A DNA stretch of 40,000 bases from Nitrosarchaeum sp. (GCA_036984365.1 BQXB01000003.1:1-40000), one strand, 5' to 3'. Positions 5,559 through 21,939 are shown, counted from the first letter of the stretch. Numbers and translations: made by a program. The notes: generated from the sequence alone by a model not told the origin.

Positions 5559-5597
5559 TAGAATCCCCCCTTTGTAGGCACGATTTTGTGCTATGTT
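5559..5597. repeat. Casposon 1 left TIR: TAGAATCCCCCCTTTGTAGGCACGATTTTGTGCTATGTT
   Basis: Exact reverse complement of 10993..11031, checked base by base. Confidence 0.92.
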
Positions 5598-5672
5598 TTT
5601 GATTGACTAGATAATTACTCACGTTATGATTTGTTGGAAAATACTTAAGATCATTACTTTGGTCATTATCAT

Positions 5673-5939
5673 ATGGCAAACTTAGGAGTAATTTTGGCAG
5701 GATTGATTTTGTTTGGCATTGCATTCGTTGGATACACTTATCCAATATCCGATAATGGGTATACCATTCCACAATATGATCAACTTTGTGATTCTGGAGT
5801 AGGACAACTAGGACAATTGTTTAACAGGAACACACAACAAGATTGTGGATTAGCAAATACGTTGTTACTTGGAATTTATGGTATTGGATTGATTGGATTG
5901 ATACTTTTCATCGTTGGTCTAGTTGTTCCCAAAAGATGA
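5673..5939 (+). CDS. small membrane protein (88 aa, two hydrophobic segments), overlapping cas1
   Basis: Hydrophobic stretches LGVILAGLILFGIAFVGY and LLLGIYGIGLIGLILFIVGLVV. Its TGA stop overlaps the cas1 ATG (ATGA at 5936..5939). Confidence 0.55.
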   Translation: MANLGVILAGLILFGIAFVGYTYPISDNGYTIPQYDQLCDSGVGQLGQLFNRNTQQDCGLANTLLLGIYGIGLIGLILFIVGLVVPKR

Positions 5940-6961
5940 CATTAAAAGGAAAACAAAACCATTACAACGTAAAATTTCTCAAAGGCTACGGATTTTCAAT
6001 CAAGGTAAAAGATTCCAAGATTGTTCTCACCAATACAGCAGATCCATTCTCAAAACCAGAAAGAGAAGAATGGTACATCGACAACATGCCATATGAAAAA
6101 ATAGTTCTTTGTGGCAAAGGATACATTTCTACTGAGGCACTGAGTTTACTGTCCAATAATAGCAGAAATATTATTTTGCTAGATACATTTGGAAAACCAG
6201 TAACATACCTAAATCCTATAAGAGAATCACAGACAGCCACTTTATACAGAATGATGCAATATGATACATTTCGTGATGAATCAAAAAAAGATTATCTTGT
6301 AAAACAAATCATTTTTGCAAAGAAAAAATCTCAACTACAGTTGCTCCAGAAAATAGGAAGCTCTGTTGACACATTACCTGATGAGGAGGCACATGCAAGT
6401 ATGATCTATTTTTCTGAATATGCAAAATTTATTCCTAAGCGATTTGGATTTAGTTCCAGAAATCAGTCTTTTAGCGGTGCCTCAAAAAGTAATGCCAAAG
6501 ACATCATAAATGCCCTGTTAAACTATGGCTATGCAGTACTAGCAGGTGAAATCTCAAAATTTGTCAACGGTGTAGGATTGGATGCATACTATGGATTTAT
6601 GCACAAGAATCACGGCAATTCCCAATCACTAGTGTATGATTTGATAGAGCCATTTAGGTGGATGGTAGATTATGCAGTGTTTAGTCTTGCCAATAGTGTA
6701 AGCACAAAGCAGAAAATCTACCTCAAAGACTATGCGCATAACAGAGAAGGAGATGTAATTTTGGATTACTCTCTTACCAGACGATTCTTGGAAAGATTGG
6801 AGCGAGTATTTCAAAAAGAGAGACCTTACCGATTAAAGCATGGTAGAAAACGATCTGATGGTCTTTCTATGTGTCAGGAGATTACTATTGTGAAAATAAC
6901 CGTGCAAGATCTTGCAGACTATTGCTGTTACTCCAAGAGTTTTCTTGAAGATAACCGTTAG
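5936..6961 (+). CDS. cas1: Cas1-family casposase (casposon integrase)
   Basis: NALLNYGYAVLAGE...GLDAYYGFMHK...LVYDLIEPFRWMVD is the Cas1 catalytic-core pattern. The start is set at ATG 5936 (MTLKGKQNHYNVKFLKGYG), identical in its first 19 aa to the casposon 2 Cas1. The track's upstream extension from 5843 overlaps the membrane ORF. Confidence 0.92.
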   Translation: MTLKGKQNHYNVKFLKGYGFSIKVKDSKIVLTNTADPFSKPEREEWYIDNMPYEKIVLCGKGYISTEALSLLSNNSRNIILLDTFGKPVTYLNPIRESQTATLYRMMQYDTFRDESKKDYLVKQIIFAKKKSQLQLLQKIGSSVDTLPDEEAHASMIYFSEYAKFIPKRFGFSSRNQSFSGASKSNAKDIINALLNYGYAVLAGEISKFVNGVGLDAYYGFMHKNHGNSQSLVYDLIEPFRWMVDYAVFSLANSVSTKQKIYLKDYAHNREGDVILDYSLTRRFLERLERVFQKERPYRLKHGRKRSDGLSMCQEITIVKITVQDLADYCCYSKSFLEDNR

Positions 6962-7169
6962 TCTTTCTCTTTCTTACTCTCCATAGTGCCCTGTTTGCAG
7001 TTGTTTCTCCATAGTTTTGTCGTAAATTTTTCATTAGAATGGTTCTGACTCTGCCAAATCGCTCAATGTCTTTGATAATTTGCTCTTCACATGCTAAATT
7101 ACCGTCAATAGTTCCTGTTTCTTCTTTTAGATTCTCTTCTTCTCTTTTACTGTCCCAGAATTTTATCAT
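6885..7169 (-). CDS. hypothetical protein (94 aa), specific to casposon 1
   Basis: ORF only. Its 3' end overlaps the cas1 3' end by about 77 nt. No motif recognised. Confidence 0.3.
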   Translation of the reverse strand: MIKFWDSKREEENLKEETGTIDGNLACEEQIIKDIERFGRVRTILMKNLRQNYGETTANRALWRVRKRKTNGYLQENSWSNSNSLQDLARLFSQ

Positions 7170-7202
7170 TGGAATATAGTGCGTGAATGTTGTATTTGAT
7201 CT

Positions 7203-7604
7203 TTAACTTTTAGGTCTGCCACGTTTTCTTATGATTTTAGGTCTGCCTAGTTTTCCTTTTTTCTCAAATTCTTTAATTTCAGTTTGCATTATGCCAAAAA
7301 AATTCTCAAATTCTTTGAATTCTTCTTTGGAATATTTTCTTTCAAGTTTTAAAAATAAACGTTCAATCTTTTTTTGATATTCAAGACTGTTAAACATTTT
7401 TTTTAATTCTGTGAAAAATTCATGTAGTATTGGATATGATTTTGGAGTAAGTCTGTACTTGCTTCTTTCTACTGGAACTAGTATGCTGATTGCTTCTTTC
7501 ACTAGTTGACTTTTTGTTGTTTTTTTCTTTTTCAGATATTCATCAATTATCTTTCCTTGCTCTTGTGAAAATGTAGCACTAACATGATATCTTAATTTAC
7601 GCAT
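7203..7604 (-). CDS. ribbon-helix-helix (CopG/Arc-like) DNA-binding protein
   Basis: Start taken at the internal ATG (MRKLRYHVSATFSQEQGKIIDEYLKKKKTTKSQLVKEAISIL), which gives a beta-strand, helix, turn, helix RHH pattern. The track's N-terminal extension to 7751 is hydrophobic junk that overlaps the divergent gene. Confidence 0.5.
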   Translation of the reverse strand: MRKLRYHVSATFSQEQGKIIDEYLKKKKTTKSQLVKEAISILVPVERSKYRLTPKSYPILHEFFTELKKMFNSLEYQKKIERLFLKLERKYSKEEFKEFENFFGIMQTEIKEFEKKGKLGRPKIIRKRGRPKS

Positions 7605-7653
7605 GAAATGTGTATACAGATTTTGATATTTATTTTTGTAAGTATGTCTATAT

Positions 7654-7857
7654 GTGAAAAACAAAATACCAATCAAGACCCTTGAGTTAGGCACAAGAAA
7701 AATCAGTAACATGAATTTTTCAAAGATTGTTACTCTGCCTAAGCCATTCACCCAAAACTATCTGGATGAGAACATGGAAGTTTCAATGTCCTTGTCTCAT
7801 GACGGGAAATTGACACTAACCCCAGTCAAAAAGTTAGAGGAGGTGAAAAAGAAGTGA
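7654..7857 (+). CDS. AbrB/SpoVT-like small DNA-binding protein, first gene of the polB operon
   Basis: IVTLPKPFTQNYL...EVSMSLSHDGKLTLTPV resembles the swapped-hairpin pattern. The positional counterpart in casposon 2 is 17112..17393. GTG start is uncertain. Confidence 0.4.
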   Translation: MKNKIPIKTLELGTRKISNMNFSKIVTLPKPFTQNYLDENMEVSMSLSHDGKLTLTPVKKLEEVKKK

Positions 7858-8210
7858 TGAAAGAGAAAAGATGGTCACCATTTCTCAGTTGGAGTAGTTA
7901 CAAATCTCAAAATTCCAAAAAGCCCGACGTGTTAGACTTGCAGGTTTCAGAACTAGAGTTGTTTTCTACTGCCTACTCTGTAAATGCAAAGGTCAACCAT
8001 AAAGATTCCGATGGAAGATGGTACGAAAGAATTCTTCCCGTTGGATATCACGAATCAATCAACAAAGATTTGCTAAGGCAATGGGAAGAAGCATTTCACA
8101 ACGGATGGATTAGATTGAACAGCCACATCAGAATCAAGACGTGGCTTGAAACATCAAAGAAGCACAAAGACAGATTGATTAGAAGATACATGCTAATCGT
8201 ATTGGATTAG
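7854..8210 (+). CDS. conserved casposon protein (118 aa)
   Basis: Homolog of 16783..17115 by eye: PFLSWSSYKS versus PFLKWGDYKS, and IRIKTWLETSKK versus LQIKTWLRQSSK. Same operon position. 4-nt overlap with the upstream gene. Confidence 0.6.
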   Translation: MMKEKRWSPFLSWSSYKSQNSKKPDVLDLQVSELELFSTAYSVNAKVNHKDSDGRWYERILPVGYHESINKDLLRQWEEAFHNGWIRLNSHIRIKTWLETSKKHKDRLIRRYMLIVLD

Positions 8211-8243
8211 CAAAAATCTTTTTTTTCTTTTTTATGATGAAAC

Positions 8244-8564
8244 ATGTCCACTGAAGACAAAAGAAGCAAACTGCTAGAGCAACTTGATGCACTAAAGATA
8301 TTCCCAAACAACAAACTAGTAAGACAACTTCGCAATCAACTAAAAACAAAACTGGAAAAACTAGAAACAACATCTGCACCATTTCCAAAAAATCCAAACA
8401 TTTCTAGATCTGGCAAATTAAAGAGATATCATAATTATTTGAGACAAATCAGAAACAACTTTCCAGAATACTCTTACAAGCAAATAAGACAGCAGTTTGC
8501 AAGAAGAAAAAAACAGCAAGACGCTTCAATTCCTGATGCGGTATGGCAGAATCCATCCCCGTAA
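8244..8564 (+). CDS. conserved casposon protein (106 aa) ending ...AVWQNPSP; overlaps the polB start
   Basis: Homolog of 16421..16756, which ends ...VIWQNPSA. N-terminal coiled-coil-like region and basic middle part. 22-nt overlap with polB in both casposons. Confidence 0.6.
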   Translation: MSTEDKRSKLLEQLDALKIFPNNKLVRQLRNQLKTKLEKLETTSAPFPKNPNISRSGKLKRYHNYLRQIRNNFPEYSYKQIRQQFARRKKQQDASIPDAVWQNPSP

Positions 8565-10318
8565 CCAATTACAATACTCTGTCAAAGTTATACACAAAGA
8601 AAAAACAAAACAGAGATCCTGCACAATCAGAACTAAGAGAAATTCATGCGCTGGATACAGAGACATGGAAGGGAGATATCTTTCTAATTGCTGATTCTAG
8701 TGGTCGATATATTGATAAAATTACGCCTGAAAACGTGATGGAATGGCTGTTTTTTAAAAAATACGAGGGTTCTTGGTGCTTTTTTTACAATTTATCATAT
8801 GATGCTGAAGTTATTTTGAAACTGCTTGGAAAAGAACTTGACAGATACAAAAGAACTGGCAAGCTTGAGTTTAAGTTTGGAAAATACAGAATTGTCTACT
8901 ATCCAGAAAAATGCCTCAAGATCACAGCAGGTCACCATTCTGTTATCTTTTATGACATTGCTCAATTTTACCATTCTGGTTTGGTTGATGCATATCAAAA
9001 CAATATTGGAAAACTACCAAAAGAATATCTGGAATTTAAAAAAATTAATGATCAATTCTCACCAACATACTATAGAAGAAATACAAATGCTGTAAGGAAT
9101 TATTGTATTTCAGATTGTAAATACACTAAACAACTGGCACAACACTGGATCAAACTATTTCATGAGGCGTTTTCATTTTATCCTGCAAAGTGGTTGTCCT
9201 CTGGATACTTGGCAGAAAAAGTTTTGATAAACAATAACATAGACATTCCAAAGTTTGATTCCATTCCATATGAGATTCAAGAGATGGCATATCGCAGTTA
9301 TTATGGTGGGAGATTTGAGATTCTAAAACGTGGATTTGTTGGTGAGGCATATCTTTATGACATCAATTCAGCATATCCATATGCAATAACTCAGATTCCA
9401 GATTTATCTGATGGGATATGGATTAAAAGAAAAACAATTCACAAAAACGCAAAAGTTGGATTCTTTAGGATCAGAGCAAAGATTCCAGACTGCAAGTATA
9501 TCCCACCATTTCCATTTAGAACAAAGCATGATATTGTTTTTCCCTCTGGAGAGTTTGAGACATATGTCACACTGCAAGAACTGCTAGTCTGTGAAAAGTC
9601 CTTTTACAAAATTCTTGAAGGATACCAGTTTATCCCAAACTCTGAAATTTATCCATATGCAGATTTTATTTCAAAACTATATCAGAAAAGACTGGAACTA
9701 AAACAGCAAAACAATCCGTTACAGTTGCCAATCAAAATAATTCTGAATTCTATTTATGGCAAGACTGGACAAAGTGTTAATCATAAAATAGGAAACATGT
9801 TCAATCCTGTAATTTTTGCATTTATCACTGGATTTGTGCGTGCCCAACTCTATAGTTTTGTTAAAAAATATGGTTTAGAAAAAGAAGTTGTGTTTTTTGC
9901 AACGGATTCCATATGTACCAGAAAGAAATTAGATATCAATTCTACTGTCTTAGGAGAGTTTTCCTTTGATGGAATGGATGATGATGTCTTTGTGTTGCAG
10001 AATGGTTTCTATCGATTTAATGGAAAATGGAAACAACGTGGATTAGGCAAGTTGGGAACTAGAGAAATAGAACATCTAGACACATTTGAAAAGAATGGGA
10101 GATTGTACTATAGTTTTGTTGTAAACAGAAACAACAGACTACGATCTTCTATTTTACAAAATAAAATTAGCGATATTGGAAAGATAAAACCAGAGACTAG
10201 GGAGTTTAATCTCAATGCAGACAGGAAGAGGTTTTGGTTGGGGAGGATTGAGAGTATGGATGATAAGATAATGAATGAGTCAATACCGATATGTTTTAAT
10301 CATTTTAAAATTAAATGA
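8543..10318 (+). CDS. polB: protein-primed family B DNA polymerase (pPolB)
   Basis: ExoI HALDTET, ExoII YNLSYDAEV, motif A DINSAYPYA, motif B KIILNSIYGKTGQ, motif C FFATDSI. Confidence 0.9.
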   Translation: MAESIPVTNYNTLSKLYTKKKQNRDPAQSELREIHALDTETWKGDIFLIADSSGRYIDKITPENVMEWLFFKKYEGSWCFFYNLSYDAEVILKLLGKELDRYKRTGKLEFKFGKYRIVYYPEKCLKITAGHHSVIFYDIAQFYHSGLVDAYQNNIGKLPKEYLEFKKINDQFSPTYYRRNTNAVRNYCISDCKYTKQLAQHWIKLFHEAFSFYPAKWLSSGYLAEKVLINNNIDIPKFDSIPYEIQEMAYRSYYGGRFEILKRGFVGEAYLYDINSAYPYAITQIPDLSDGIWIKRKTIHKNAKVGFFRIRAKIPDCKYIPPFPFRTKHDIVFPSGEFETYVTLQELLVCEKSFYKILEGYQFIPNSEIYPYADFISKLYQKRLELKQQNNPLQLPIKIILNSIYGKTGQSVNHKIGNMFNPVIFAFITGFVRAQLYSFVKKYGLEKEVVFFATDSICTRKKLDINSTVLGEFSFDGMDDDVFVLQNGFYRFNGKWKQRGLGKLGTREIEHLDTFEKNGRLYYSFVVNRNNRLRSSILQNKISDIGKIKPETREFNLNADRKRFWLGRIESMDDKIMNESIPICFNHFKIK

Positions 10319-10328
10319 TGTTTTAAAA

Positions 10329-10592
10329 TTAAGAATCAGGTTTTAACGTAATATAACCATGGCAATTTTTTGTGTAGATATCTTTACTCAAGCTTAAATT
10401 AAGCAATGTTACTTTTTCAAATGTAACTCCAAATTTATAGGGATTCATTAATTTTAATTTGTCAAAAGATCGTTTTATTTCTTCAAAATCTTCCTCTTTA
10501 ATATCAACAATATTGATTGAAATCGCTCCATTTTGAATATTCATATTAAGTGTACATTTTGATAGAAATGCAAAATCTCCTAATATTTCCAT
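10329..10592 (-). CDS. hypothetical protein (87 aa)
   Basis: ORF only. Confidence 0.35.
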   Translation of the reverse strand: MEILGDFAFLSKCTLNMNIQNGAISINIVDIKEEDFEEIKRSFDKLKLMNPYKFGVTFEKVTLLNLSLSKDIYTKNCHGYITLKPDS

Positions 10593-10609
10593 AGTTATAA
10601 TATTGAATT

Positions 10610-10999
10610 ATGTTTTATATATTAACACAGGATAAGAAAATTGAATTTATGGTATTGGAAAATTTGTCAGATCTTGGAATCGTAATAGAAATCTCAGGAT
10701 TTGTTTTATTGTTATTCTTTTGGAAAATTCCTACCTACACCGATTTATTTAGATGGCAGAAGTTTCTAATTTTCTTTAAGTTCTTTTTTGGATATGAAAA
10801 AATTGCTAAAATAATTTCAGAAAGTAAAATAATGGATGATGATGATACAATGACTCGATCTACAAGTCTTTCTGTCAGTTCTAATAATTCAATTCCGAGT
10901 GAATTCTTACGCTTTTGGAAAATTATGAAAAAGTTTTCTATTTTGATTGTAATCTTAGGATTAGTTTTACAATTATCCTGTTTGAATTTTCCAACATAG
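10610..10999 (+). CDS. hypothetical membrane protein (129 aa)
   Basis: Three hydrophobic segments (LGIVIEISGFVLLLFFW, FLIFFKFFFG, FSILIVILGLVLQL). The ORF ends inside the right TIR. Confidence 0.4.
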   Translation: MFYILTQDKKIEFMVLENLSDLGIVIEISGFVLLLFFWKIPTYTDLFRWQKFLIFFKFFFGYEKIAKIISESKIMDDDDTMTRSTSLSVSSNNSIPSEFLRFWKIMKKFSILIVILGLVLQLSCLNFPT

Positions 11000-11031
11000 C
11001 ACAAAATCGTGCCTACAAAGGGGGGATTCTA
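10993..11031. repeat. Casposon 1 right TIR
   Basis: AACATAGCACAAAATCGTGCCTACAAAGGGGGGATTCTA is the exact reverse complement of 5559..5597. Confidence 0.92.
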
Positions 11032-11036
11032 TTTTT

Positions 11037-11054
11037 ATCGACAGAGAGTAAAAA
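11037..11054. repeat. Target copy b: ATCGACAGAGAGTAAAAA, junction of casposon 1 and casposon 2
   Basis: Identical to 5541..5558. Preceded by T5, which is absent from the native aEF-2 sequence. Confidence 0.9.
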
Positions 11055-11094
11055 GGCAGTCCCCCCTCTTTACGCACAAAAACATGCGTCTGAC
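11055..11094. repeat. Casposon 2 left TIR: GGCAGTCCCCCCTCTTTACGCACAAAAACATGCGTCTGAC
   Basis: The reverse complement matches 21895..21934 at 38 of 40 positions. Confidence 0.9.
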
Positions 11095-11234
11095 TAAAAT
11101 TATAACGAAATAGGATTTGTTGGAGAATTGTTATAACGAAAGTATGAATTTGTGAATAGTTGAAAATAAATCCATCATTATGAAGAATATTGAAATATAG
11201 TTAAAAATACTTAGAATAAAAGATTAATTATTAA

Positions 11235-12491
11235 ATGACAGAATCTGAAATTTCTCTTGAAAAATTAATACTTTCAATTAAGAACATTGTTGATTTAACA
11301 ATGTTAAATCCTAAAAACTATGATAAATTCCAAATGTCTTCTATCATACACATATACGAAAATAATACTACAATTGCTTTTCCACATTCCACAGATTATT
11401 ATAAATTAGATGTCATTCAATATGTCAGAACTAAATCTAAAACTTGGAATTCCAGACTTTCAGATGAATATATTACAAATGAACTAAAAGAATTGGTATT
11501 AGAATTAAAAATAAATTCTGAAAAATACATGAATATTGGTAGAAATGTAAAAGATTGGATCCAAAAACTCAAAACATCATCAATAACAAATTATAGATTT
11601 ATCTTTCCCGTAAATAACGTCGATTATAGAAAAGACATTGAATTTGATAGAATTAAACTTAAGAAATTAAAATTGGATGTATTGCGTTCTTTTATACCGT
11701 TTCAAGATGCGCTTAATCCAAACGATATTTTTTCAACAGAATCTCAATTTGAAGATCTTGTTAAATTCAATCATACAGAAATTTTTGCTTTCATTGATGT
11801 GCAGGCAAAGGATGAAGATCAAGGTAAAATATTAGCAGAATCCTATCTCAAAAAATTAATTCATGCAATAAAATTATTTAATCCGCCATCAGGTATTTGT
11901 GAAAGAGTATTATATTTTCCTGAAACAAAATTTTCATATTTAGTAGTGGATATGGATACAAAAAATGTTTCATTTCCAATGAAAAATCTTCATCTTAATG
12001 CTCACGTTTGGCCCTATATTGATTATTGGAAACGAATTGAACCTTACTGGCAACAATTATCAAATTTTCTCTTTTCAGATGATCTTACTGAAATTCAATC
12101 ATTAATTCTTACAGCATTATATTGGTATGGTGAAGCAAGCAAAGAAACTGAAGATCAAATTTCAAAATTTCTCAAATATCTATATGGGTTAGAATCCTTG
12201 CTAATTTTTGATAATCAATACGGTAAAAGTGAAAAAATATCCCAAAGATTGGCCACAATTCAGAGTAAAGAAAATCCAGAAGATTTTGATTTTTATTACA
12301 ATCTGATGTTCGATTATTATAAATTTCGTAGCCAAATAGTACATTCTGGTAAATTGATTATTGACGATGAAGACGTTGCTACCACTCACACATGGCTACG
12401 TCATTTGATTTTTGATTATATTCTGTTCTCAAAAAAATATGACAATGTACAGGAATTATTCCAGAAAGAATTTTCAATTAAAATTATTTAA
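11235..12491 (+). CDS. HEPN-like protein (C-terminal Rx4H domain), casposon cargo
   Basis: The C-terminal region LTALYWYGEASKETEDQISKFLKYLYGLESLLI ... YYKFRSQIVHSG carries an R-x4-H motif in the helical context typical of HEPN nuclease families of the abortive-infection type. The N-terminal 280 aa are unassigned. Confidence 0.5.
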   Translation: MTESEISLEKLILSIKNIVDLTMLNPKNYDKFQMSSIIHIYENNTTIAFPHSTDYYKLDVIQYVRTKSKTWNSRLSDEYITNELKELVLELKINSEKYMNIGRNVKDWIQKLKTSSITNYRFIFPVNNVDYRKDIEFDRIKLKKLKLDVLRSFIPFQDALNPNDIFSTESQFEDLVKFNHTEIFAFIDVQAKDEDQGKILAESYLKKLIHAIKLFNPPSGICERVLYFPETKFSYLVVDMDTKNVSFPMKNLHLNAHVWPYIDYWKRIEPYWQQLSNFLFSDDLTEIQSLILTALYWYGEASKETEDQISKFLKYLYGLESLLIFDNQYGKSEKISQRLATIQSKENPEDFDFYYNLMFDYYKFRSQIVHSGKLIIDDEDVATTHTWLRHLIFDYILFSKKYDNVQELFQKEFSIKII

Positions 12492-12560
12492 TAAGCATAA
12501 TATATGATCTGATTTTAGATAGCGTATTCAATTAACTCATAATCCAAACTTTCATCAGAT

Positions 12561-13598
12561 TTATTGAAACTTTAATTCGAGTAATGATTGAATTTCAGTA
12601 GCTATTTTTTTTATTGTGTTTTTTCTTTTTAATAGTTCTATATCTACAAATTCTGATTTGTAGAATTCTCTTCCTTCAGATATTTTCTTAAAAAGACATT
12701 CGAATAACTGAAACCCTGAGCGTTGTTTCCATTGTTTTAAAATTGTATGATAATCATCATCACGTTGTATAGAATGTGCATACATCTTCTCATACAATTG
12801 TTCTGGAGAATCCAGATTTTCAAATAGTAATACTTCTTTAAATTCTTCCACAAAGACATGTAGTGGTTGCCAACTCATATCTGACAGTTTTATCATATCT
12901 TTCTCAAAAAATTCATGTAGTATGAAACAATCTTTGAAAATTTTTCCTAATTCGTGTTGTTTATAGACAAATTCTCGTTCTAATTGTCTTCCCATCATAT
13001 TCCATTTTTTGATCTCACCATCTAATTCTTTTAGACTATCATGGATGGATTTATCCATTTTAAATCTAGAAAAATCATCAATGTCTTCCCAAGGAGTTAC
13101 AAGTTTATTTGTCAAGAAAAAATTTCCATTTTGAATTTGTATTATTGAATTGTATATTGGTCGATATACATTTTGTAACAGCCACAATTTGTCTTCATTT
13201 TTTGTTCTTTTTTTTGGGATACTCTTTAGGTGTTCCCGTATCTGAGAACAAACATCTAAAAAATTGGCTCTTGTGAATTCTTCAACATCTTTACCATAAA
13301 TTAGAAATCCTCTTTTTGCATTTTGTTCAATCAAAGGTATTGTAGGCATAGAAATTCCTTGTGCATAGCCTAATTCTTGATTTACAGATGCTGATGAAAT
13401 AGAGTCGTTTGTAATAATTGCTATCAGATAATCAGAATCATCAAGTTGTTGTATAATTTTATTTGAAATTTCAATATCGTATTTCTTTACTCTTTGAGCG
13501 ATATATGCAGTTTCAATGTCTTCTGATTGCTCTAAGATTTCTTTTAATTTAGTTGCTAGATCTTCATCTGTGATTGGATAACTGATGAATATCTTCAT
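12561..13598 (-). CDS. TIR-like domain protein with an unknown C-terminal domain, casposon cargo
   Basis: N-terminus MKIFISYPITDEDLATKLKEIL...SDYLIAIITNDSISSASVNQELGYAQG fits the TIR / DUF1863-type pattern: FISY strand, acidic helix, S-x-x-V-x-x-E with a conserved Glu. Confidence 0.5.
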   Translation of the reverse strand: MKIFISYPITDEDLATKLKEILEQSEDIETAYIAQRVKKYDIEISNKIIQQLDDSDYLIAIITNDSISSASVNQELGYAQGISMPTIPLIEQNAKRGFLIYGKDVEEFTRANFLDVCSQIREHLKSIPKKRTKNEDKLWLLQNVYRPIYNSIIQIQNGNFFLTNKLVTPWEDIDDFSRFKMDKSIHDSLKELDGEIKKWNMMGRQLEREFVYKQHELGKIFKDCFILHEFFEKDMIKLSDMSWQPLHVFVEEFKEVLLFENLDSPEQLYEKMYAHSIQRDDDYHTILKQWKQRSGFQLFECLFKKISEGREFYKSEFVDIELLKRKNTIKKIATEIQSLLELKFQ

Positions 13599-13762
13599 GT
13601 GAACACTTCACAATTAAACTTGCAGTTAATTAAAGAAATTCATTGAAATTGGCATCGAATTAATCATCTTCCCATCATTGACATCTCTCAAATCCTCAAA
13701 CCACATTCTTTTCCTGTCAGCATTAAAATGTTAGTTTCAAAATGCACTTGCTAACAGAAAAC

Positions 13763-14599
13763 TCATTGCAATGTGTATAAATCCGATTTCTGAATTTTAT
13801 TTACTAAATTAGGTTTATTTTTTTTTGTTATAAAATTCACCCTATCTACAAAATCATTTGAAGACAATGGTGCAATATAGATATTTTCTATTAAACTATC
13901 TATATTCAATTTAACAAATTTTCCATCAGGGGTTAATTCATTAGGATTAACAATCCTTGGTTTTGAAGGATTTGTTTTTTCTCTTTCAATGTCTTTTGTG
14001 CCTAATACTTTTTGCAACTTATTATCTTCAGGTAAGGCAGTAATAAGACGTAATTCTGATTCACATTCAAATGAAATTCGTTTTGTTATAAATCGTTGAT
14101 ATGCATTCCATTCATTCATCCATTCTCTAGAATAATCTGAGTAAATCACACGGCCAATCCAAATCGTGTCATCAGTATTGTCATTAAACGATTCTTTTAT
14201 TTTTCTATAAGTTGATTGAATGGCAATTCCCTCCATATTGGATGTGTATAATTTCCACATAGATGCAGATTCATGATCATTGATATGCCAACAATTTACT
14301 AAAAGCTGATTTTTTAGCATCTCGTATGTGATCTCATCCATTTTTGGTTTGTTTTTGATAAATTTATCAAATTGTTTCTTACTAGCAAACCTGTCTTGTA
14401 TTTCAGAGTAAACCTGTTTTGTATTTTTCTTATTGAATTCTGGGACGGTTCCTTCAAAAGGATCTTCAAAAGAAGTAACTTTAGAAAAATGAAGAGACTC
14501 TTTCTCTAATAGACTCTGGAATTTTTGAATATTCATAAAGCGCCAGATTTTACTATCTAGATTGACGGGAGGCTCAAATATTGGATGAGGTTCATGCAT
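13763..14599 (-). CDS. DUF2971-family protein, casposon cargo
   Basis: N-terminal KIWRFMNIQKFQSLLEKESLHFSKVTSFEDPFEG matches the DUF2971 signature (Y/F-x-s-x-x-x-f-x-x-l-L-x-x-x-x-L-x-f-s-x-x-x-x-f-N/E-D-P-F-E). The gene starts 25 nt downstream of the polB stop on the same strand. Confidence 0.6.
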   Translation of the reverse strand: MHEPHPIFEPPVNLDSKIWRFMNIQKFQSLLEKESLHFSKVTSFEDPFEGTVPEFNKKNTKQVYSEIQDRFASKKQFDKFIKNKPKMDEITYEMLKNQLLVNCWHINDHESASMWKLYTSNMEGIAIQSTYRKIKESFNDNTDDTIWIGRVIYSDYSREWMNEWNAYQRFITKRISFECESELRLITALPEDNKLQKVLGTKDIEREKTNPSKPRIVNPNELTPDGKFVKLNIDSLIENIYIAPLSSNDFVDRVNFITKKNKPNLVNKIQKSDLYTLQ

Positions 14600-14624: not shown

Positions 14625-16442
14625 TCAAATTTTTGCAGCATCAAACAAAGGCAATGGAAACGGTGATGAAATGTTGTGTTCTTTTAATCTTACATCGGTC
14701 AACCTTCCATGCCATAATCTTCCTCTGTCTCCATTGATGTTCAGTTGTTTAGAAGATGTGTAAAACGAACCAATATTTTCTAGTGTTCCCTTGTTTAGAT
14801 TCTCCTTTAGTGTCCCGACCCGTAGTTTCTCAAATGTATACTTGATTCGTCCTTTGGAATCAATGATTGTTTCTTTGTGGTTAATTGACTCATCGCCAAT
14901 AGAACCAATACCTCGAGACCTTTCCCATACATCATTTTTAGAATAAAATCCACTTTGTAATGCATAGATAGACCCCTCAAAATCAAATGAAAATTCGCCT
15001 AATTCCTTTGAATCTAAATTTAATTTCTTTTTGGAACATATTGAATCAGTATACATCATGATGATGTCATTTTCAATTCCATGTTTAATGATACAAGAAT
15101 ATAGTTTGGCTCGAGCAATTCCTGTAATTGTAGATACTATTACGGGATTGAAGATATTTCCCATCTTGTTATCAGTTGTCTGCCCAGTTTTTCCATAAAT
15201 TGAGTTTAGGATAATCTTGAATGGTTGTTCTAGTGGATTTCCTGCTCTTTTTAGTGCCTGTCTTTGCTCGTACATCTCTGTGATTGGCTTTTTGTATGGA
15301 AAATAGGGATCTGGATCACAATACTGCCAAGAATCTAAAATCTCATACCATGATGAATCCTCACAAGATTGCAGTTCTGCAAGTGTGACAAATGTGATAA
15401 ACTCACCGACTGGGTAAATCAGTTTTGATCTAATCTTGAAAGGAAATGGCGAGATGTGCTGAGCTAACGGAATCTTTGCCTTTATTTTAAAAAATCCAAT
15501 CACTACATCTTTCTGAATTGTCTTTGACTGAATCCATTTTCCCTTTGTTAGTTCTGGAACTAGAGTTAACGCATAAGGATATGCCGAATTTACATCATAG
15601 ATAAAACATGATTTGTTGTATCCTCTTTGTACTAGTTCAATTCGTCCACCGGCATATGCATTCCAAGCAAGCTCTTGTGCTTGTTCTGGAATTTCATCAA
15701 ACTTTGGCAGAATGACTCCTTTGTTGATCAGAATTTTTTCTGCAAGATACCCTGATGAAATCCAGTGACTTGGATAAAACCCAAATGCCTTGTAAAACAT
15801 ATCAATCCAATGTGTAGCTAGTATGGCTGTAAACTTGCAGTCTGAGATGCAATAGTTTCTGATTAATTTTTTATGTCTCTTGTAGTATGGAATGGTAAAA
15901 TCTTTTCTTAAATTTTTCATCTCCAAATATTCTTGAGGTAATTTGCCAATGTTTTTCTGATATGCCTCAGATAGTTTCTTTTGAAAATAAAACTGCGATA
16001 TGTCAAAAAATGTAACCGAGTGTTTGCCCTTACGAATTGATAGTTTCTTTTCTTCGATATAATGAATTGAATAACCTAATAGTTTACAACGAAATCTTTG
16101 TTTAAAGTGCAGTAATTCTTTATTTGATAGATTCATTAGAATCATTTTCAAAATTATTCTTGCATCATAGTGTAGATTCCAGAAAAAACACCACGATGAT
16201 TCATATCTTTTATGAAATAGAAATCTCAGAGTTTTTTCAAGCGTAGTATCCTCAAGATCAATGAAATTTCCATCATTGTCTGCAAGTAATAGCATCTTTC
16301 CATTTGAGGTAGCCTCTATGTCCAGAGCATATATTTTACGCCTATCAGAGGTTGCTTTACGCCTAAACTGAGGTCTTTTTCGTAAATGTTTTAGCGTTCT
16401 ACATCTACTTGTTGGAATCTCTATGCTGACGGGTTTTGCCAT
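14625..16442 (-). CDS. polB: protein-primed family B DNA polymerase (pPolB)
   Basis: ExoI YALDIEAT, ExoII WNLHYDARI, motif A DVNSAYPYA, motif B KIILNSIYGKTGQ, motif C MYTDSICS. Confidence 0.9.
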   Translation of the reverse strand: MAKPVSIEIPTSRCRTLKHLRKRPQFRRKATSDRRKIYALDIEATSNGKMLLLADNDGNFIDLEDTTLEKTLRFLFHKRYESSWCFFWNLHYDARIILKMILMNLSNKELLHFKQRFRCKLLGYSIHYIEEKKLSIRKGKHSVTFFDISQFYFQKKLSEAYQKNIGKLPQEYLEMKNLRKDFTIPYYKRHKKLIRNYCISDCKFTAILATHWIDMFYKAFGFYPSHWISSGYLAEKILINKGVILPKFDEIPEQAQELAWNAYAGGRIELVQRGYNKSCFIYDVNSAYPYALTLVPELTKGKWIQSKTIQKDVVIGFFKIKAKIPLAQHISPFPFKIRSKLIYPVGEFITFVTLAELQSCEDSSWYEILDSWQYCDPDPYFPYKKPITEMYEQRQALKRAGNPLEQPFKIILNSIYGKTGQTTDNKMGNIFNPVIVSTITGIARAKLYSCIIKHGIENDIIMMYTDSICSKKKLNLDSKELGEFSFDFEGSIYALQSGFYSKNDVWERSRGIGSIGDESINHKETIIDSKGRIKYTFEKLRVGTLKENLNKGTLENIGSFYTSSKQLNINGDRGRLWHGRLTDVRLKEHNISSPFPLPLFDAAKI

Positions 16443-16756
16443 ATTACATCATTAATCTCTACATCCTCACCTCTACGTCTTGCAAAGAACTGTGCAAATA
16501 CTTGTTTTAGAGTATATTTTTCTCGTAGTTCTGGATATGTATCATATGTTAGTTTGACATATCTCCAAACATTTTTCATAAAACTAGAACGCTTTTGATT
16601 TGTATTTACAGTTGGTTTTTGTTTTGGTGGTTTTTGTGTCTCTAGTTTTTGTTTTTCTTTTTTTAATCTCTTACATAATGTAATTGCCTCTCTGAATTGT
16701 AAATTCTTTAGCTCTTCAAGCAAAGAGTTAATCTTATCTAGGTCAATTGACTTCAT
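16421..16756 (-). CDS. conserved casposon protein (111 aa) ending ...VIWQNPSA; overlaps the polB start
   Basis: Counterpart of 8244..8564, with the same 22-nt overlap with polB. Confidence 0.6.
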   Translation of the reverse strand: MKSIDLDKINSLLEELKNLQFREAITLCKRLKKEKQKLETQKPPKQKPTVNTNQKRSSFMKNVWRYVKLTYDTYPELREKYTLKQVFAQFFARRRGEDVEINDVIWQNPSA

Positions 16757-16782
16757 AGTTTATCACATCATAAAAAAAGAGA

Positions 16783-17115
16783 TTAGAGGGGTTTCACCTC
16801 AAAATCTCTTAATTCTTTTTCTGGATTTTTGCTGGACTGTCTTAGCCATGTCTTGATTTGCAGTACTGTTCCAGATTGTATTTTTCCAGAATGTAGCAGT
16901 TTGTTGTACTGTCTATACAGTATTTTGTTTGTTGACTTGGCTTTCAATGGAATGTTTACATCCATCATGTCAAGTGTTACCAAGACATTCCAGTCGTATT
17001 GTGTTTCAAATGATTCTGGGTCTACTACTACCACTTGAATTGTGTCAGGACTTTTTGCATCCTTGCTTTTGTAGTCGCCCCACTTCAAAAATGGTGGGAG
17101 AGAGGACTGACTCAA
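16783..17115 (-). CDS. conserved casposon protein (110 aa)
   Basis: Counterpart of 7854..8210 (PFLKWGDYKS, IKTWL). Confidence 0.6.
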   Translation of the reverse strand: MSQSSLPPFLKWGDYKSKDAKSPDTIQVVVVDPESFETQYDWNVLVTLDMMDVNIPLKAKSTNKILYRQYNKLLHSGKIQSGTVLQIKTWLRQSSKNPEKELRDFEVKPL

Positions 17116-18659: not shown

Positions 18660-19945
18660 TTAACAGTCATCATTGAGTTCAGAGTTGATTCTCCATATAT
18701 TGTGTGGACGAATATTCTTTTTGTGCATTTCAATAAATTTTACTTTTAACTTATTCCATAAAATTTGAATTACAATATCTAATTTTTCTGCATATTTTGT
18801 TATATCGTCTTTTTCTAATTTTTTAGCAATTTCTCTTAATCTTTTGCGTCTTGAATCAGGAGGCGGATGTGTTCCTAATGGGCCATCGCTTCTACCTCCT
18901 CTCCAGTAAAAGTGATCATGTCCATTTTCTAGAATGCACAAACTTCTTTGAACAATTTCAAACCCTGTCAAGATTAATTCTGTTCCCCAATAACTTTTCA
19001 CTGCATTGTACCTATTAGATAAAGCACCTAATGCAAAAATTAATCCACCATAATCTGCCTCATACTCTCTTTGCCAATCATAAATCATTTTTTTTGCGTC
19101 TGATTTTGAAATTGATACCAATTTCGTTTCATTATCACCTACATGTCCAAAAAATTTATGAGCGTATTCGTGACCCAAGATAAATAATTCCATACCATTT
19201 CTCAAATTTTCTACAGATATCTCATATCTTGGATCAATGAGATATTGTTTGGCAAGACTGGGTTTGCCCTTTACAATATATGATGTAAAAAGATCTTCAA
19301 AACTTTCAAAGATCTGTGGATTGTTTTCAATTGTTTCTTTGATATTTTTTCATCTATTGAAAAAAAACTGTAACCTATTGGCGGAATTTTTTTTCCGTCT
19401 CTTTCGGTTATAATTTCATCTCTCATATAGGGAAAGGATAATGCAATAATTTTACTAAATAAATTACAAAAATTAAAAATTTCATCTTGAAAAATTATTA
19501 GATATTCTTTTGTTGATGAAAAATATCTTATTTGTGCATTTACTTCCCCGGTAGGCAATGTTCCGATATATGGGGGATTTTCAAAAACGTCTGAATCCTT
19601 TAAACTTAATTCCACTCCATGCGTTTTAATTTTAATATTTTCTGCTCCTTCTTGTAATTGTTCATTCAAATCATGAAGAATACTAATCAATATTGGATTT
19701 TCGTACGCTGTGGAGTGCTGTGTTTCAATTAATTGATTGTAACATTCTTCTGTGTTTTTTTTGTAAAATGATTTTTCTTTTTTGGATAATTCTTTACCAT
19801 ATTTTTTTAGAAATTCCTTACATAACTTTCTTGAAACTCTTTTAAGTTCTGTTTTTACTTTTCTTTGGTATTTTTTTTCATCACCAATTATTTTTTTTTG
19901 ACGGCATTCGAGATATTCTATTGCTTTGCTTGATTCTTCAGTCAT
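18660..19945 (-). pseudogene. HExxH zinc metalloprotease split by a frameshift (224-aa N-part plus 181-aa C-part)
   Basis: The C-part has FILGHEYAHKFFGH and a downstream REYEADYGG. Its reading frame stays open upstream to 19349 (KNIKETIENNPQIFESFEDLFTSYIVKGKPSLAKQYLIDPRYEISVEN...). It overlaps the tail of the 224-aa ORF, which stops at 19271. The overlap begins at a T6/A6 run (19345..19350). Confidence 0.55.
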
Positions 19946-21934: not shown

Positions 21935-21939
21935 TTTTT

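What the first reader, a model, noticed from the sequence alone, without database searches (positions are those of the whole stretch)
11235..14599. Casposon 2 carries a HEPN-like / TIR-like / DUF2971 cargo block joined to its polB operon
Casposon 2 is about twice the size of casposon 1. Much of the extra DNA lies between the left TIR and polB and holds three genes. The first is a 418-aa protein with a C-terminal Rx4H HEPN-like motif (YYKFRSQIVHSG, preceded by YWYGEASKE...LYGLESL). The second is a 345-aa protein with an N-terminal TIR-like domain (KIFISY...SASVNQELGYA). The third is a DUF2971 protein (SFEDPFEG) that starts only 25 nt after the polB stop on the same strand. HEPN and TIR domains are recurrent effectors of prokaryotic antiviral and abortive-infection systems, and DUF2971 is frequent in such neighbourhoods. 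A self-synthesizing transposon, and a relative of the CRISPR adaptation module, would here be carrying a candidate defence module. The combination does not match a named system that I recognise. It could be a novel archaeal defence or addiction module that also stabilises the element.
Basis: partly seen in the sequence, partly recalled or inferred. Interest (0 to 1): 0.85.

Follow-up and report, generated by a model that had tools for sequence, protein, structure and literature searches.

The report
Casposon carrying three candidate defence genes
A self-replicating transposon (casposon) in an ammonia-oxidising archaeon carries three unrelated genes that each look like a one-protein, suicide-type antiviral enzyme (an RNA cutter, an NAD+ destroyer, an ADP-ribosylating enzyme), so it is a small mobile "defence island" rather than one new three-part system.

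Summary
Three intact ORFs sit at the stated coordinates, between the left terminal repeat and polB of a 10.9-kb family-1 casposon. That casposon lies in tandem with a 5.5-kb one at the 3' end of ef-2 in a Nitrosarchaeum genome.

- **Gene 1 (418 aa).** It belongs to a large family that neither Pfam nor PADLOC recognises. R365 and H370 are invariant in it. A profile of its C-terminal domain matches solved ApeA HEPN proteins (E=1e-6).
- **Gene 2 (345 aa).** It has a genuine N-terminal TIR domain with an invariant Glu75. Its C-terminal domain is swapped for others among relatives.
- **Gene 3 (278 aa).** It is a DUF2971 protein matching PADLOC PDC-S31. DUF2971 is also the domain of the tested Lactococcus anti-phage gene Aristaios. 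The model has a DarT-like ADP-ribosyltransferase fold and an invariant ExE motif.

None of the three was found next to another anywhere else. I checked 5 + 4 + 62 independent loci of their homologues and 16 related casposons. Related casposons hold other cargo in the same slot.

The best reading is three independently acquired single-gene abortive-infection candidates, a mini defence island on a casposon, not a novel three-component system. No activity has been tested. Interest is moderate.

The parts
3363..5555 (+). ef-2 gene (elongation factor 2). Its 3' end is the casposon integration target.
   Evidence: phmmer against PDB: archaeal EF-2 at E=8e-227. ef-2 is the commonest target of thaumarchaeal casposons according to PMC6563490.
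5540..5555 (+). Target-site sequence TATCGACAGAGAGTAA, copy 1 (end of ef-2). Copies 2 and 3 are at 11036-11051 and 21939-21954.
   Evidence: Direct-repeat family D1; sequences read.
5556..11035 (.). Casposon 1, 5.5 kb. Cas1 is 5843..6961 (+) and polB is 8543..10318 (+). The perfect 45-nt terminal inverted repeats are at 5553-5597 and 10993-11037.
   Evidence: Inverted repeat I6. Its polB is 48% identical to the casposon 2 polB.
11049..11133 (.). Left terminal inverted repeat of casposon 2.
   Evidence: Inverted repeat I4: 85 nt, 80% complementary to 21856-21940. It is 96% identical over 50 nt to the end of the related element L022.
11235..12491 (+). Gene 1: a 418-aa ApeA-like HEPN protein. The HEPN-type all-alpha domain covers residues ~262-418 (nt 12018-12488). 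The Rx4H codons are R365 at 12327-12329 and H370 at 12342-12344.
   Evidence: R365 and H370 are invariant in 54 sequences that are 15-53% identical to it. The C-terminal profile A6 matches Ec3ApeA at E=1.2e-6 and Ec2ApeA at E=1.7e-5, and the top six PDB hits are all ApeA. In the AF2 model the C-terminal domain is helical with pLDDT 75-93. There is no Pfam, NCBIfam or PADLOC hit. Codons were checked.
12561..13598 (-). Gene 2: a 345-aa protein with an N-terminal TIR domain and a C-terminal domain (CTD) of unknown function. The TIR domain is residues ~1-130 (nt 13209-13598), with the Glu75 codon at 13374-13376. The CTD is residues 131-345 (nt 12564-13208).
   Evidence: Pfam TIR_2 E=1.4e-9, 38.9 bits against a cut-off of 28; CAP12-PCTIR_TIR 25.2 bits against 24.7. 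PADLOC ThsB models at 3e-5. E75, S71, V72, Q74, G77 and A79 are invariant in 31 homologues, and at least four different C-terminal domains follow the same TIR.
13763..14599 (-). Gene 3: a 278-aa DUF2971 / PDC-S31 protein with a predicted DarT-like ADP-ribosyltransferase fold. Key codons are H105 at 14285-14287, Y153 at 14141-14143, E180 at 14060-14062 and E182 at 14054-14056. It starts 25 nt after the polB stop.
   Evidence: PADLOC PDC-S31 E=5.2e-20. phrog_34615 E=1.5e-43. Pfam DUF2971 scores only 17.6 bits, below the cut-off of 22. AF2 pLDDT is 89. The top six Foldseek PDB hits are all DarT, with E 0.02-0.37. Y153, E180 and E182 are invariant.
14625..17115 (-). Casposon 2 core operon: orf110 (16783..17115), orf111 (16421..16756) and protein-primed-type polB (14625..16442).
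   Evidence: Pfam DNA_pol_B_2 E=4.9e-20. orf110, orf111 and polB are conserved in the same order in 16 related metagenomic loci.
20020..21090 (-). Casposon 2 Cas1 (casposase).
   Evidence: Pfam Cas_Cas1 E=8.2e-50.
21856..21940 (.). Right terminal inverted repeat of casposon 2.
   Evidence: Inverted repeat I4; sequence read.

Best explanation
Casposon 2 of this Nitrosarchaeum genome uses the variable region between polB and its terminal repeat as a cargo bay. That bay holds three separately acquired, self-contained candidate defence genes of the abortive-infection type.

- **Gene 1** is a compact relative of ApeA. It has an N-terminal/middle region that is inferred to sense infection and a C-terminal HEPN RNase. 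The RNase probably cuts tRNA or other RNA through R365/H370 when activated.
- **Gene 2** is a TIR enzyme with Glu75 as the likely catalytic residue. It is inferred to degrade NAD+ or convert it into a signal, under the control of its exchangeable C-terminal domain.
- **Gene 3** is a DUF2971 (PDC-S31) DarT-like ADP-ribosyltransferase. It is inferred to use NAD+ to ADP-ribosylate DNA or an essential protein through Y153 and E180-x-E182. It is probably co-transcribed with polB.

What is shown here is ORF integrity, domain and family assignments, conservation of catalytic residues, element boundaries, and lack of co-occurrence. What is inferred is enzymatic activity, activation by infection, an antiviral phenotype, and benefit to the host and therefore to the casposon.
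For: **Element.** ef-2, three copies of the target sequence, terminal repeats, Cas1 and pPolB are all present.

**Gene 1.**
- An exhaustive profile search finds 1,962 cluster representatives.
- R365 and H370 are the only invariant columns in 54 diverse members and in the 26-sequence C-terminal alignment.
- The C-terminal profile hits only ApeA at the top of PDB. Ec3ApeA scores 1.2e-6 and Ec2ApeA 1.7e-5, aligning both the '...W.G.A.K...F.K..i.LE.LL' helix and the 'Y..R..I.H.G' motif. The Ec2ApeA entry 9hxe, whose name begins with 'H' (apparently a His variant; the name is truncated), scores lower.
- ApeA is a single-protein abortive-infection RNase that cuts tRNA anticodon loops and is switched on by a ligand pocket (bioRxiv 10.64898/2026.01.26.701840).
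- Plasmid relatives are annotated 'HEPN domain-containing protein'.
- Homologues sit beside R-M, GmrSD, SIR2, OLD-TOPRIM and integrase genes.

**Gene 2.**
- TIR_2 is above the Pfam threshold.
- E75 is invariant, and the conserved TIR is followed by a variable C-terminal domain.
- That C-terminal domain occurs without a TIR in L005 (hmmsearch 1.2e-9).

**Gene 3.**
- It matches PDC-S31 at 5e-20.
- Homologues occur in 60 IMG/VR loci and 226 plasmids.
- The high-confidence model has DarT as its six best PDB matches.
- The ExE and Tyr residues are invariant.
- Literature places DUF2971 in the HYE clade of ADP-ribosyltransferases, DarT-like (PMC12522546). Aristaios, a DUF2971 protein, gives abortive-infection phage resistance as a single gene (PMC11381338).

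**Independence of the three genes.**
- No second member of the trio lies within the contig or within 8-10 kb in 5 distinct gene-1 loci, 4 gene-2 loci, and 2 + 60 gene-3 loci.
- None of 16 related casposon loci carries any of them, apart from a 134-aa HEPN-family ORF in L022.
- The slot after polB holds an unrelated 279-aa ORF in L015, and L018 carries a KAP-NTPase (PDC-S20/QatA-like) instead.
- The cargo block is 28.1% G+C against 32.5% for the rest of the element.
- There is no small partner ORF in the gaps.
- The same element with the same cargo was assembled from two other sequencing runs.
Against: - No activity, expression or phenotype data exist for any of the three proteins or for any close homologue.
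- Gene 1 is missed by every curated HEPN or ApeA model tried: Pfam, NCBIfam and PADLOC. Its full-length AF2 model gave no significant Foldseek match, and its N-terminal 90 residues are poorly predicted.
- Gene 3 is below Pfam's DUF2971 cut-off. Its DarT fold matches have E>0.001 and TM scores of only 0.35-0.51.
- The only tested DUF2971 system is bacterial and distant. I did not compare sequences with it.
- Most context loci are short metagenomic contigs, so the co-occurrence sample for gene 2 is small: four loci, three of them under 2.4 kb.
- Defence is inferred largely from family and neighbourhood.
- No viruses of this host were examined.
Confidence: 0.6

Rival explanations
1. The genes serve the casposon rather than the host. 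They would act as weapons against competing mobile elements, for example the neighbouring casposon 1 or viruses that use the same cell. Alternatively they would stabilise the element, because losing a tightly regulated toxin is costly.
For: All three are potentially toxic enzymes carried inside a mobile element. Gene 3 is fused to the polB operon by a 25-nt gap, so it would be expressed whenever the element replicates. Two casposons compete for the same ef-2 site. In a second locus (L009) the gene-2 homologue lies next to casposon-type ends.
Against: There is no antitoxin or immunity ORF in the gaps, so a classical addiction mechanism is lacking. The same families occur outside mobile elements, for example the gene-3 homologue between the his operon and the HMG-CoA reductase gene in L011. 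This reading overlaps with defence, since protecting the host also protects the element.
Confidence: 0.2
2. The three genes, or the convergent pair TIR + HEPN, form one signalling system of the Thoeris type. In this model the TIR protein makes an NAD+-derived nucleotide on infection. That nucleotide binds a pocket in the ApeA-like protein and switches on its RNase. The DUF2971 enzyme would be a second effector or a modulator.
For: The genes are adjacent inside one element. TIR proteins produce signals in Thoeris (established knowledge). ApeA is activated by small nucleotides bound in a pocket distinct from the active site. Both neighbours of gene 1 use NAD+.
Against: None of the three families was found next to another in any other locus examined. 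Gene-1 homologues stand alone or beside unrelated defence genes. Gene 1 is on the opposite strand. No ThsA-like partner is present. The 90-aa ORF after the gene-2 homologue in L009 has no Rx4H motif.
Confidence: 0.07
3. The genes are inert passengers: recently captured DNA with no current function in this host, on its way to decay.
For: The cargo has lower G+C than the core. It is unique to this element among its relatives. Another cargo gene of the same casposon, the M48-like gene, is frameshifted in this assembly. The related element L022 carries only a truncated HEPN ORF and a truncated polB.
Against: All three ORFs are full length and colinear with their homologues. Every family-invariant catalytic residue is retained. 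The sequences are identical in two further assemblies.
Confidence: 0.08
4. Gene 3, possibly with the others, takes part in casposon replication or transposition. One example would be modifying DNA ends or the terminal protein for the protein-primed polymerase.
For: Gene 3 starts 25 nt after polB on the same strand. An ORF of nearly the same size (279 aa) occupies the same position in L015.
Against: The L015 ORF is unrelated in sequence. No other related casposon has a DUF2971 gene. The family is abundant in prophages, plasmids and chromosomes that have no casposon.
Confidence: 0.03

Closest known systems
ApeA (single-protein HEPN abortive-infection system; solved structures 9hxb-9hxm)
   Same: The C-terminal HEPN domain has the same two signature segments and an Rx4H catalytic motif. 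The profile match is E=1.2e-6 to 6e-3, and ApeA proteins fill the top six PDB hits. Both have a single-gene layout with a non-catalytic N-terminal part. Both occur in defence-island and mobile-element neighbourhoods.
   Different: This protein is 418 aa, against about 590-620 aa for ApeA. The HEPN insertions of ApeA are largely absent. Homology of the N-terminal and middle regions is not demonstrable (domain 1 not significant). It is not recognised by PADLOC ApeA models or by Pfam HEPN models. Its host is archaeal. Substrate, ligand and oligomeric state are unknown.
DUF2971 proteins: PADLOC candidate PDC-S31 and the Lactococcus system Aristaios; more distantly the DarT toxin of DarTG
   Same: It matches the PDC-S31 HMM at E=5e-20 over residues 13-205. 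It has an ART-like fold with DarT as the best structural match. The Tyr and ExE residues are conserved, as described for DUF2971 (PMC12522546). It is a single gene, as Aristaios is (PMC11381338).
   Different: It scores below Pfam's DUF2971 cut-off (17.6 bits against 22). I made no direct comparison with the Aristaios sequence. There is no DarG-like antitoxin. Here the gene is joined to a casposon polB operon. The target of modification is unknown.
TIR-domain defence proteins (Thoeris ThsB; CAP12/Pycsar TIR effectors)
   Same: The TIR_2 and CAP12-PCTIR_TIR Pfam models score above threshold, and ThsB models give weak hits. The invariant Glu lies in the 'S.SVNQELG' motif, at the position expected for the catalytic Glu. 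That positional assignment is an inference from the motif.
   Different: There is no ThsA, cyclase or other partner in the element. The TIR is fused to a 215-residue C-terminal domain with no known family. The close family is small (37 hits) and mainly has the TIR followed by four alternative C-terminal domains.
Thaumarchaeal family-1 casposons (NitAR1-C1, NitNF5-C1/C2, NitEve-C1; PMC6563490)
   Same: They share Cas1, protein-primed PolB and the conserved upstream small genes, and they integrate at the ef-2 3' end with a target-site duplication. The pair is in tandem, as NitNF5-C1/C2 is. Element-specific cargo includes nucleases: HEPN in NitEve-C1 and OLD in NitNF5-C1 and NitDev-C1.
   Different: The cargo here, an ApeA-like HEPN, a TIR and a DUF2971 ART, is not among the cargo listed in that paper. 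It is absent from 16 related metagenomic casposons.
Pipolins and other mobile elements acting as defence islands (PMC11551731)
   Same: A PolB-encoding self-replicating element has a conserved core and a variable bay filled with defence genes.
   Different: That study found casposons poorer in PADLOC-annotated defence genes than pipolins. Two of the three genes here would be missed or left unassigned by such annotation.

Membership tests
HEPN superfamily, ApeA type (gene 1) | Conserved Rx4-6H catalytic motif | tested here: met
   R365-x4-H370 are the only invariant columns in 54 diverse family members and in the 26-sequence C-terminal alignment.
HEPN superfamily, ApeA type (gene 1) | Significant sequence-profile similarity to a structurally proven HEPN domain | tested here: met
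   Profile A6 against PDB: Ec3ApeA E=1.2e-6, three Ec2ApeA entries at about 2e-5, and Ec4ApeA at 6e-3. Both motif-bearing helices align.
HEPN superfamily, ApeA type (gene 1) | All-alpha helical-bundle domain | tested here: met
   In the AF2 model residues 262-418 consist of seven helices with pLDDT 75-93.
HEPN superfamily, ApeA type (gene 1) | Recognised by curated HEPN/ApeA models (Pfam HEPN clan, PADLOC ApeA, NCBIfam) | tested here: not met
   The protein gets no hit. Only 5 of 54 relatives touch HEPN_RiboL-PSP weakly, and none hits PADLOC ApeA.
HEPN superfamily, ApeA type (gene 1) | Fold match to HEPN structures; ApeA-like N-terminal and Mid domains | tested here: inconclusive
HEPN superfamily, ApeA type (gene 1) | RNase activity and antiviral phenotype | not testable with these tools
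   Needs biochemistry and genetics.
TIR domain proteins (gene 2) | Match to a TIR profile above the curated threshold | tested here: met
   TIR_2 scores 38.9 bits against a cut-off of 28, and CAP12-PCTIR_TIR 25.2 against 24.7.
TIR domain proteins (gene 2) | Conserved catalytic glutamate | tested here: met
   E75 is invariant in 31 homologues. That it is the catalytic residue is inferred from the motif.
Thoeris (gene 2 as ThsB) | ThsB-type TIR protein | tested here: inconclusive
   PADLOC ThsB models give E=3e-5 to 2e-3. Pfam ThsB_TIR scores 18.5 bits, below its cut-off of 21.2.
Thoeris (gene 2 as ThsB) | Adjacent ThsA effector (SIR2/SLOG, Macro or TM type) | tested here: not met
   The casposon genes scanned gave no such domain. 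The precomputed Pfam calls for the element in L088 show none either.
DUF2971 / PDC-S31 / Aristaios (gene 3) | Match to the PADLOC PDC-S31 model | tested here: met
   PDLC04993 at E=5.2e-20, covering residues 13-205.
DUF2971 / PDC-S31 / Aristaios (gene 3) | Pfam PF11185 at or above the gathering score | tested here: not met
   The score is 17.6 bits against a cut-off of 22. However, homologues 39-44% identical carry PF11185 or are named DUF2971 by their sources.
DUF2971 / PDC-S31 / Aristaios (gene 3) | ADP-ribosyltransferase fold with Tyr and ExE motifs | tested here: inconclusive
   Y153 and E180-x-E182 are invariant, and the model pLDDT is 89. The six best PDB matches are DarT, but with E=0.02-0.37 and TM 0.35-0.51.
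DUF2971 / PDC-S31 / Aristaios (gene 3) | Single-gene anti-phage activity | not testable with these tools
   This has been shown only for Lactococcus Aristaios (PMC11381338).
Family-1 casposon (the carrier) | Cas1 casposase, protein-primed PolB, terminal inverted repeats and target-site duplication at ef-2 | tested here: met
   The conserved orf110-orf111-polB order is seen in 16 related loci.

The most novel reading that the evidence does not exclude
The convergent TIR and ApeA-like HEPN genes are a two-component, Thoeris-like signalling pair carried by a casposon. The TIR protein would turn NAD+ into a small nucleotide on infection, and that nucleotide would activate the compact ApeA-like RNase through a ligand pocket. 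The polB-linked DUF2971 ADP-ribosyltransferase would be a third NAD+-dependent arm. This would be a new archaeal signalling defence system mobilised by a Cas1 transposon.
Probability: 0.05. Interest if true: 0.8.

Novelty: new variant of a known kind. Interest (0 to 1): 0.42.

Why it matters
- It extends the rule that mobile elements ferry defence genes to casposons, the Cas1-encoding transposons thought to have seeded CRISPR adaptation. It does so in ammonia-oxidising archaea, whose immune repertoire is poorly known.
- It shows that the region between polB and the terminal repeat is a cargo bay with rapid turnover among related casposons.
- It flags a large family of compact ApeA-like HEPN proteins (at least 1,962 clusters at 50% identity) that current Pfam and PADLOC models miss. 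Defence-system censuses therefore under-count it.
- It also flags a small archaeal TIR family with exchangeable C-terminal domains. That pattern suggests sensor swapping.

None of this overturns current views. The value lies in annotation and in concrete, testable candidates.

Tried and rejected
- **Curated models for gene 1.** Pfam, NCBIfam, PADLOC and PHROG searches on gene 1 and on 54 + 10 + 10 relatives found no curated HEPN model.
- **Full-length profile A2 against PDB.** This gave only a marginal ApeA hit (E=0.02). Trimming to the C-terminal domain was needed to reach significance.
- **Profiles A4 and A5 against PDB sequences.** These gave nothing meaningful.
- **BFVD search of the gene-3 model.** It returned only unnamed phage proteins with E>0.001.
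- **Genome-collection scan for gene 1.** It returned a single locus that was already known.
- **IMG/VR scans for genes 1 and 2.** They gave no relatives, or no usable pattern.
- **Possible TIR + HEPN pairing in L009.** The 90-aa ORF with a weak RnlA_toxin hit has no Rx4H motif and looks like an RnlA N-terminal-type domain, so I rejected the pairing.
- **Possible DUF2971 + TIR pairing in L093.** The 280-aa gene upstream of the TIR homologue is a multi-pass membrane protein, not DUF2971.
- **The same-sized ORF after polB in L015.** It is unrelated to gene 3.
- **Cas1 and PolB fragment matches next to gene-1 homologues (L005, L006/7).** They are short and weak (26 aa and 63 aa), so I did not use them as evidence.
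- **Rfam and tRNA scans of the window.** Both were empty.
- **Bacterial promoter/terminator scan.** I did not run it, because the host is an archaeon.

Full report
**1. What is there**

The window comes from a Nitrosarchaeum genome. Source names for the exact proteins of genes 2 and 3 are YTPLAS73_09580 and YTPLAS73_09590, and the genus belongs to the family Nitrosopumilaceae.

ORF 3363..5555 is elongation factor 2, with E=8e-227 to archaeal EF-2 structures. Its last 16 nt, TATCGACAGAGAGTAA, recur at 11036 and 21939. These three copies bracket two elements:
- Casposon 1 spans about 5556-11035 and has perfect 45-nt terminal inverted repeats.
- Casposon 2 spans about 11052-21938 and has 85-nt terminal repeats that are 80% complementary.

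Each element has a Cas1 and a protein-primed-type PolB. The two PolBs are 48% identical.

This is the family-1 thaumarchaeal casposon architecture. A tandem arrangement at ef-2 has been described for NitNF5-C1/C2 (PMC6563490). The cargo here differs from the cargo listed in that paper. The same casposon 2 segment, with the same three cargo genes, was assembled independently from two other sequencing runs at 99.96-100% identity.

**2. The observation**

The three ORFs are at the stated coordinates and contain the stated motifs. Gene 3 starts 25 nt after the polB stop.

The gaps between the genes are 100, 69, 164 and 25 nt. No ORF of 30 aa or more lies wholly within them. ORFs of 278-418 codons have a chance probability of at most 2e-10 at this base composition. 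Gene 1 is on the + strand, convergent with gene 2, so the block is not one operon.

The block explains roughly half of the size difference between the two casposons. The rest lies between the polB operon and cas1, and between cas1 and the right repeat. The block is 28.1% G+C, against 32.5% for the rest of the element.

**3. Gene 1 (418 aa)**

No Pfam, NCBIfam, PADLOC or PHROG model recognises it. Close homologues are few (20). An exhaustive profile search, however, finds 1,962 cluster representatives. Many are 400-440 aa long and match over most of the profile.

In an alignment of 54 members that are 15-53% identical to the query, the only invariant columns are R365 and H370. W297, G299 and Y362 are nearly invariant. 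The AF2 model is poor in the first ~90 residues, but residues 262-418 form a confident all-helical domain.

The full-length profile gave only a marginal ApeA hit (E=0.02), and Foldseek found nothing. A profile restricted to the C-terminal domain (A6) gave significant hits, and all six top PDB matches were ApeA:
- Ec3ApeA at 1.2e-6.
- Three Ec2ApeA entries at about 2e-5.
- A further Ec2ApeA entry (9hxe), whose truncated name begins with 'H' and may be a His variant, at 2.6e-3.
- Ec4ApeA at 6e-3.

Both the helix carrying the '...W.G.A.K...F.K..I.LE.LL' signature and the 'Y..R..I.H.G' motif are aligned.

ApeA is a single-protein abortive-infection system. Its HEPN domain cleaves tRNA anticodon loops and is activated by small nucleotides bound in a separate pocket (bioRxiv 10.64898/2026.01.26.701840).

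Two plasmid-borne relatives are annotated in RefSeq as 'HEPN domain-containing protein'. They match the family profile at 1e-34 and 1.5e-19.

I conclude that gene 1 encodes a compact, distant ApeA-type HEPN protein. Whether its N-terminal and middle parts correspond to ApeA's is undetermined.

**4. Gene 2 (345 aa)**

Residues 3-90 match Pfam TIR_2 at 38.9 bits (cut-off 28) and CAP12-PCTIR_TIR at 25.2 bits (cut-off 24.7). ThsB models match more weakly.

Among 31 homologues the motif S71-V72-x-Q74-E75-x-G77-x-A79 is invariant. E75 is at the place expected for the TIR catalytic glutamate; this assignment is an inference from the motif.

The same TIR is followed by at least four unrelated C-terminal regions in different homologues. 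The C-terminal domain of this protein occurs as a separate TIR-less ORF in locus L005 (hmmsearch E=1.2e-9). A constant enzymatic head with exchangeable tails is the pattern seen in sensor-effector defence proteins (inference). No ThsA-like or cyclase partner is present in the element, so it is not a Thoeris, CBASS or Pycsar system.

**5. Gene 3 (278 aa)**

Pfam DUF2971 is below threshold (17.6 bits against 22). The protein nevertheless matches PADLOC PDC-S31 at 5.2e-20 and phrog_34615 at 1.5e-43. Homologues 39-44% identical carry PF11185 or are named DUF2971 by their sources.

The family is widespread and mobile. A word-indexed search found 551 homologues. It also occurs in 60 IMG/VR viral or proviral loci and 226 plasmids, including haloarchaeal ones.

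The AF2 model is confident, with pLDDT 89 and pTM 0.83. Its six best PDB matches are all DarT, with Tpt1/KptA further down the list. The scores are modest, with E 0.02-0.37 and TM up to 0.51.

D46, E49, N102, W104, E110, S111, S129, Y153, K173, E180, E182 and R184 are invariant, and H105 is nearly so. This fits the published description of DUF2971 as an HYE-clade, DarT-like ADP-ribosyltransferase with a conserved Tyr and ExE (PMC12522546).

A DUF2971 protein named Aristaios confers abortive-infection-type phage resistance as a single gene in Lactococcus (PMC11381338).

**6. One system or three?**

I examined the surroundings of homologues of each gene.

*Gene 1 homologues (five distinct loci, L001-L008).* They lie beside an integrase, IS110 and an R-M system with Vsr. 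Other neighbours are GmrSD with a 2'-5' RNA-ligase-like gene, an OLD-type TOPRIM gene, and a SIR2_2 gene with a second convergent paralogue. One lies at the edge of a metabolic gene cluster.

*Full-length gene 2 homologues (four loci).* Their neighbours are ParB, a membrane protein, a secreted protein and DUF4760.

*Gene 3 homologues.* One lies in a RelA/SpoT + type IIG R-M + OLD island. One lies alone between the his operon and the HMG-CoA reductase gene. Sixty lie in viral contigs.

tblastn and profile searches with all three families across every fetched locus found no case where two of them are neighbours.

Sixteen metagenomic loci with related casposon PolBs (40-84% identity) keep the orf110-orf111-polB core but lack all three genes. 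In their place:
- L015 has an unrelated 279-aa ORF in the same slot, 35 nt after polB and just inside the terminal repeat.
- L013 is another tandem casposon pair, with only 1.7 kb between the two polB genes.
- L018/L019 carry a KAP-family NTPase that matches PDC-S20, QatA and PifA models.
- L022, whose end is 95-96% identical to that of casposon 2, carries a 134-aa ORF of the gene-1 family (GLESIF...YSIRSKFVHGG) next to its other end.

In L009 the 51%-identical gene-2 homologue lies about 0.5 kb from a casposon terminal repeat followed by the ef-2-type target sequence and a degenerate second repeat.

The picture is a hot spot with rapid cargo turnover, in which these three genes are separate acquisitions.

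**7. Mechanism proposed**

The domain assignments are tool results. The rest of this section is inference.

Each gene is a self-contained, normally silent toxin that would be triggered by infection:
- Gene 1 would dimerise through its HEPN domain and cut RNA, probably tRNA as ApeA does.
- Gene 2 would consume or convert NAD+ through its TIR domain, with activation through its C-terminal domain.
- Gene 3 would ADP-ribosylate DNA or an essential protein using NAD+.

Gene 3 is likely transcribed with polB, given the 25-nt gap. Genes 1 and 2 have their own upstream regions, and a TTTAATTAA element lies about 30 nt before the gene 2 start. That promoter reading is not tested.

Carrying such genes would benefit the host and therefore the casposon. 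A role in competition between elements cannot be separated from this with sequence data alone.

**8. Comparison and novelty**

Casposons with element-specific nuclease cargo, including a HEPN nuclease in NitEve-C1 and OLD nucleases, are already described (PMC6563490). PolB-encoding pipolins are known defence islands, and in the same study casposons scored low for PADLOC-annotated defence genes (PMC11551731).

Gene 3 belongs to a catalogued candidate family whose domain has been tested in another organism. Genes 1 and 2 are new variants of known kinds: an ApeA-type HEPN outside current models, and a TIR with a novel exchangeable tail.

No paper in the searchable library links casposons with TIR, DUF2971 or ApeA. 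The finding is real and tidy, but it is incremental rather than categorically new.

**9. Limits**

- No activity data exist for any of the three proteins.
- Several context loci are short contigs.

Noticed in passing
window 21939-21980: The third copy of the ef-2 target sequence is followed by AAATAGAATCCCCCCTTTTGTGAGTA. This matches the start of casposon 1's left repeat, not casposon 2's. It may be a solo remnant of an earlier casposon-1-type element, or a sign of rearrangement in the order of insertion.
   Followed up: partly
window 18660-19945 (-): ORFs 19271..19945 and 18660..19205 are two halves of one 428-aa gene. It has an HExxH motif and a weak Peptidase_M48 match. The gene is intact in an independent assembly (L088 355-1641). 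The window differs from that assembly by 3 substitutions and a 1-nt deletion near 19350. A third assembly (L089) ends exactly at that point. This could be a frameshift, a population variant or an assembly error.
   Followed up: yes
window 18127-18168: An 11-nt tandem repeat, ATTACATACAC, is present in about 4 copies in the intergenic region between orf226 and the 93-aa ribbon-helix-helix-like ORF of casposon 2.
   Followed up: no
window 21137-21829 (-): A 230-aa protein with a hydrophobic N-terminus and a C-terminal WING-49 domain (NCBIfam E=3e-6) lies between cas1 and the right repeat. Its C-terminus resembles that of a 623-aa cargo ORF in the related casposon L018 (33% identity over 46 aa).
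   Followed up: no
L018 3355-4527 (also L019 1865-3037): A related family-1 casposon carries a KAP-family P-loop NTPase between cas1 and polB. It matches the PADLOC models PDC-S20 (5e-27), QatA and PifA. This is another defence-type cargo in a different slot.
   Followed up: partly
L013 4640-20050: A 119-kb metagenome contig holds a second example of two family-1 casposons in tandem. They are head to head with convergent polB genes and share casposon-1 and casposon-2 type repeats.
   Followed up: partly
L015 4331-12267; L022 1471-7286: Two relatives of casposon 2 are inserted next to an isocitrate/isopropylmalate dehydrogenase gene instead of ef-2. L022 has a polB truncated at about 174-197 aa, no detectable Cas1, and three unexamined ORFs (369, 342 and 425 aa). 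It is possibly a non-autonomous derivative.
   Followed up: partly
L006 4939-7555 (= L007): Two paralogues of the gene-1 family lie tail to tail, 439 aa on the + strand and 431 aa on the - strand. They are a few kb from a SIR2_2 gene. Paired family members may work together in some genomes.
   Followed up: no
L005 2942-4450: A homologue of the C-terminal domain of gene 2, without a TIR, is a separate 239-aa ORF. It sits directly downstream of an unannotated 259-aa ORF, 2.8 kb from a gene-1 homologue. It may be a split version with a different effector.
   Followed up: partly
L093 267-2194: A full-length gene-2 homologue is preceded, with a gap of 38 nt on the same strand, by a 280-aa multi-pass membrane protein. 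This may be a two-gene TIR + membrane-effector arrangement in that organism.
   Followed up: no
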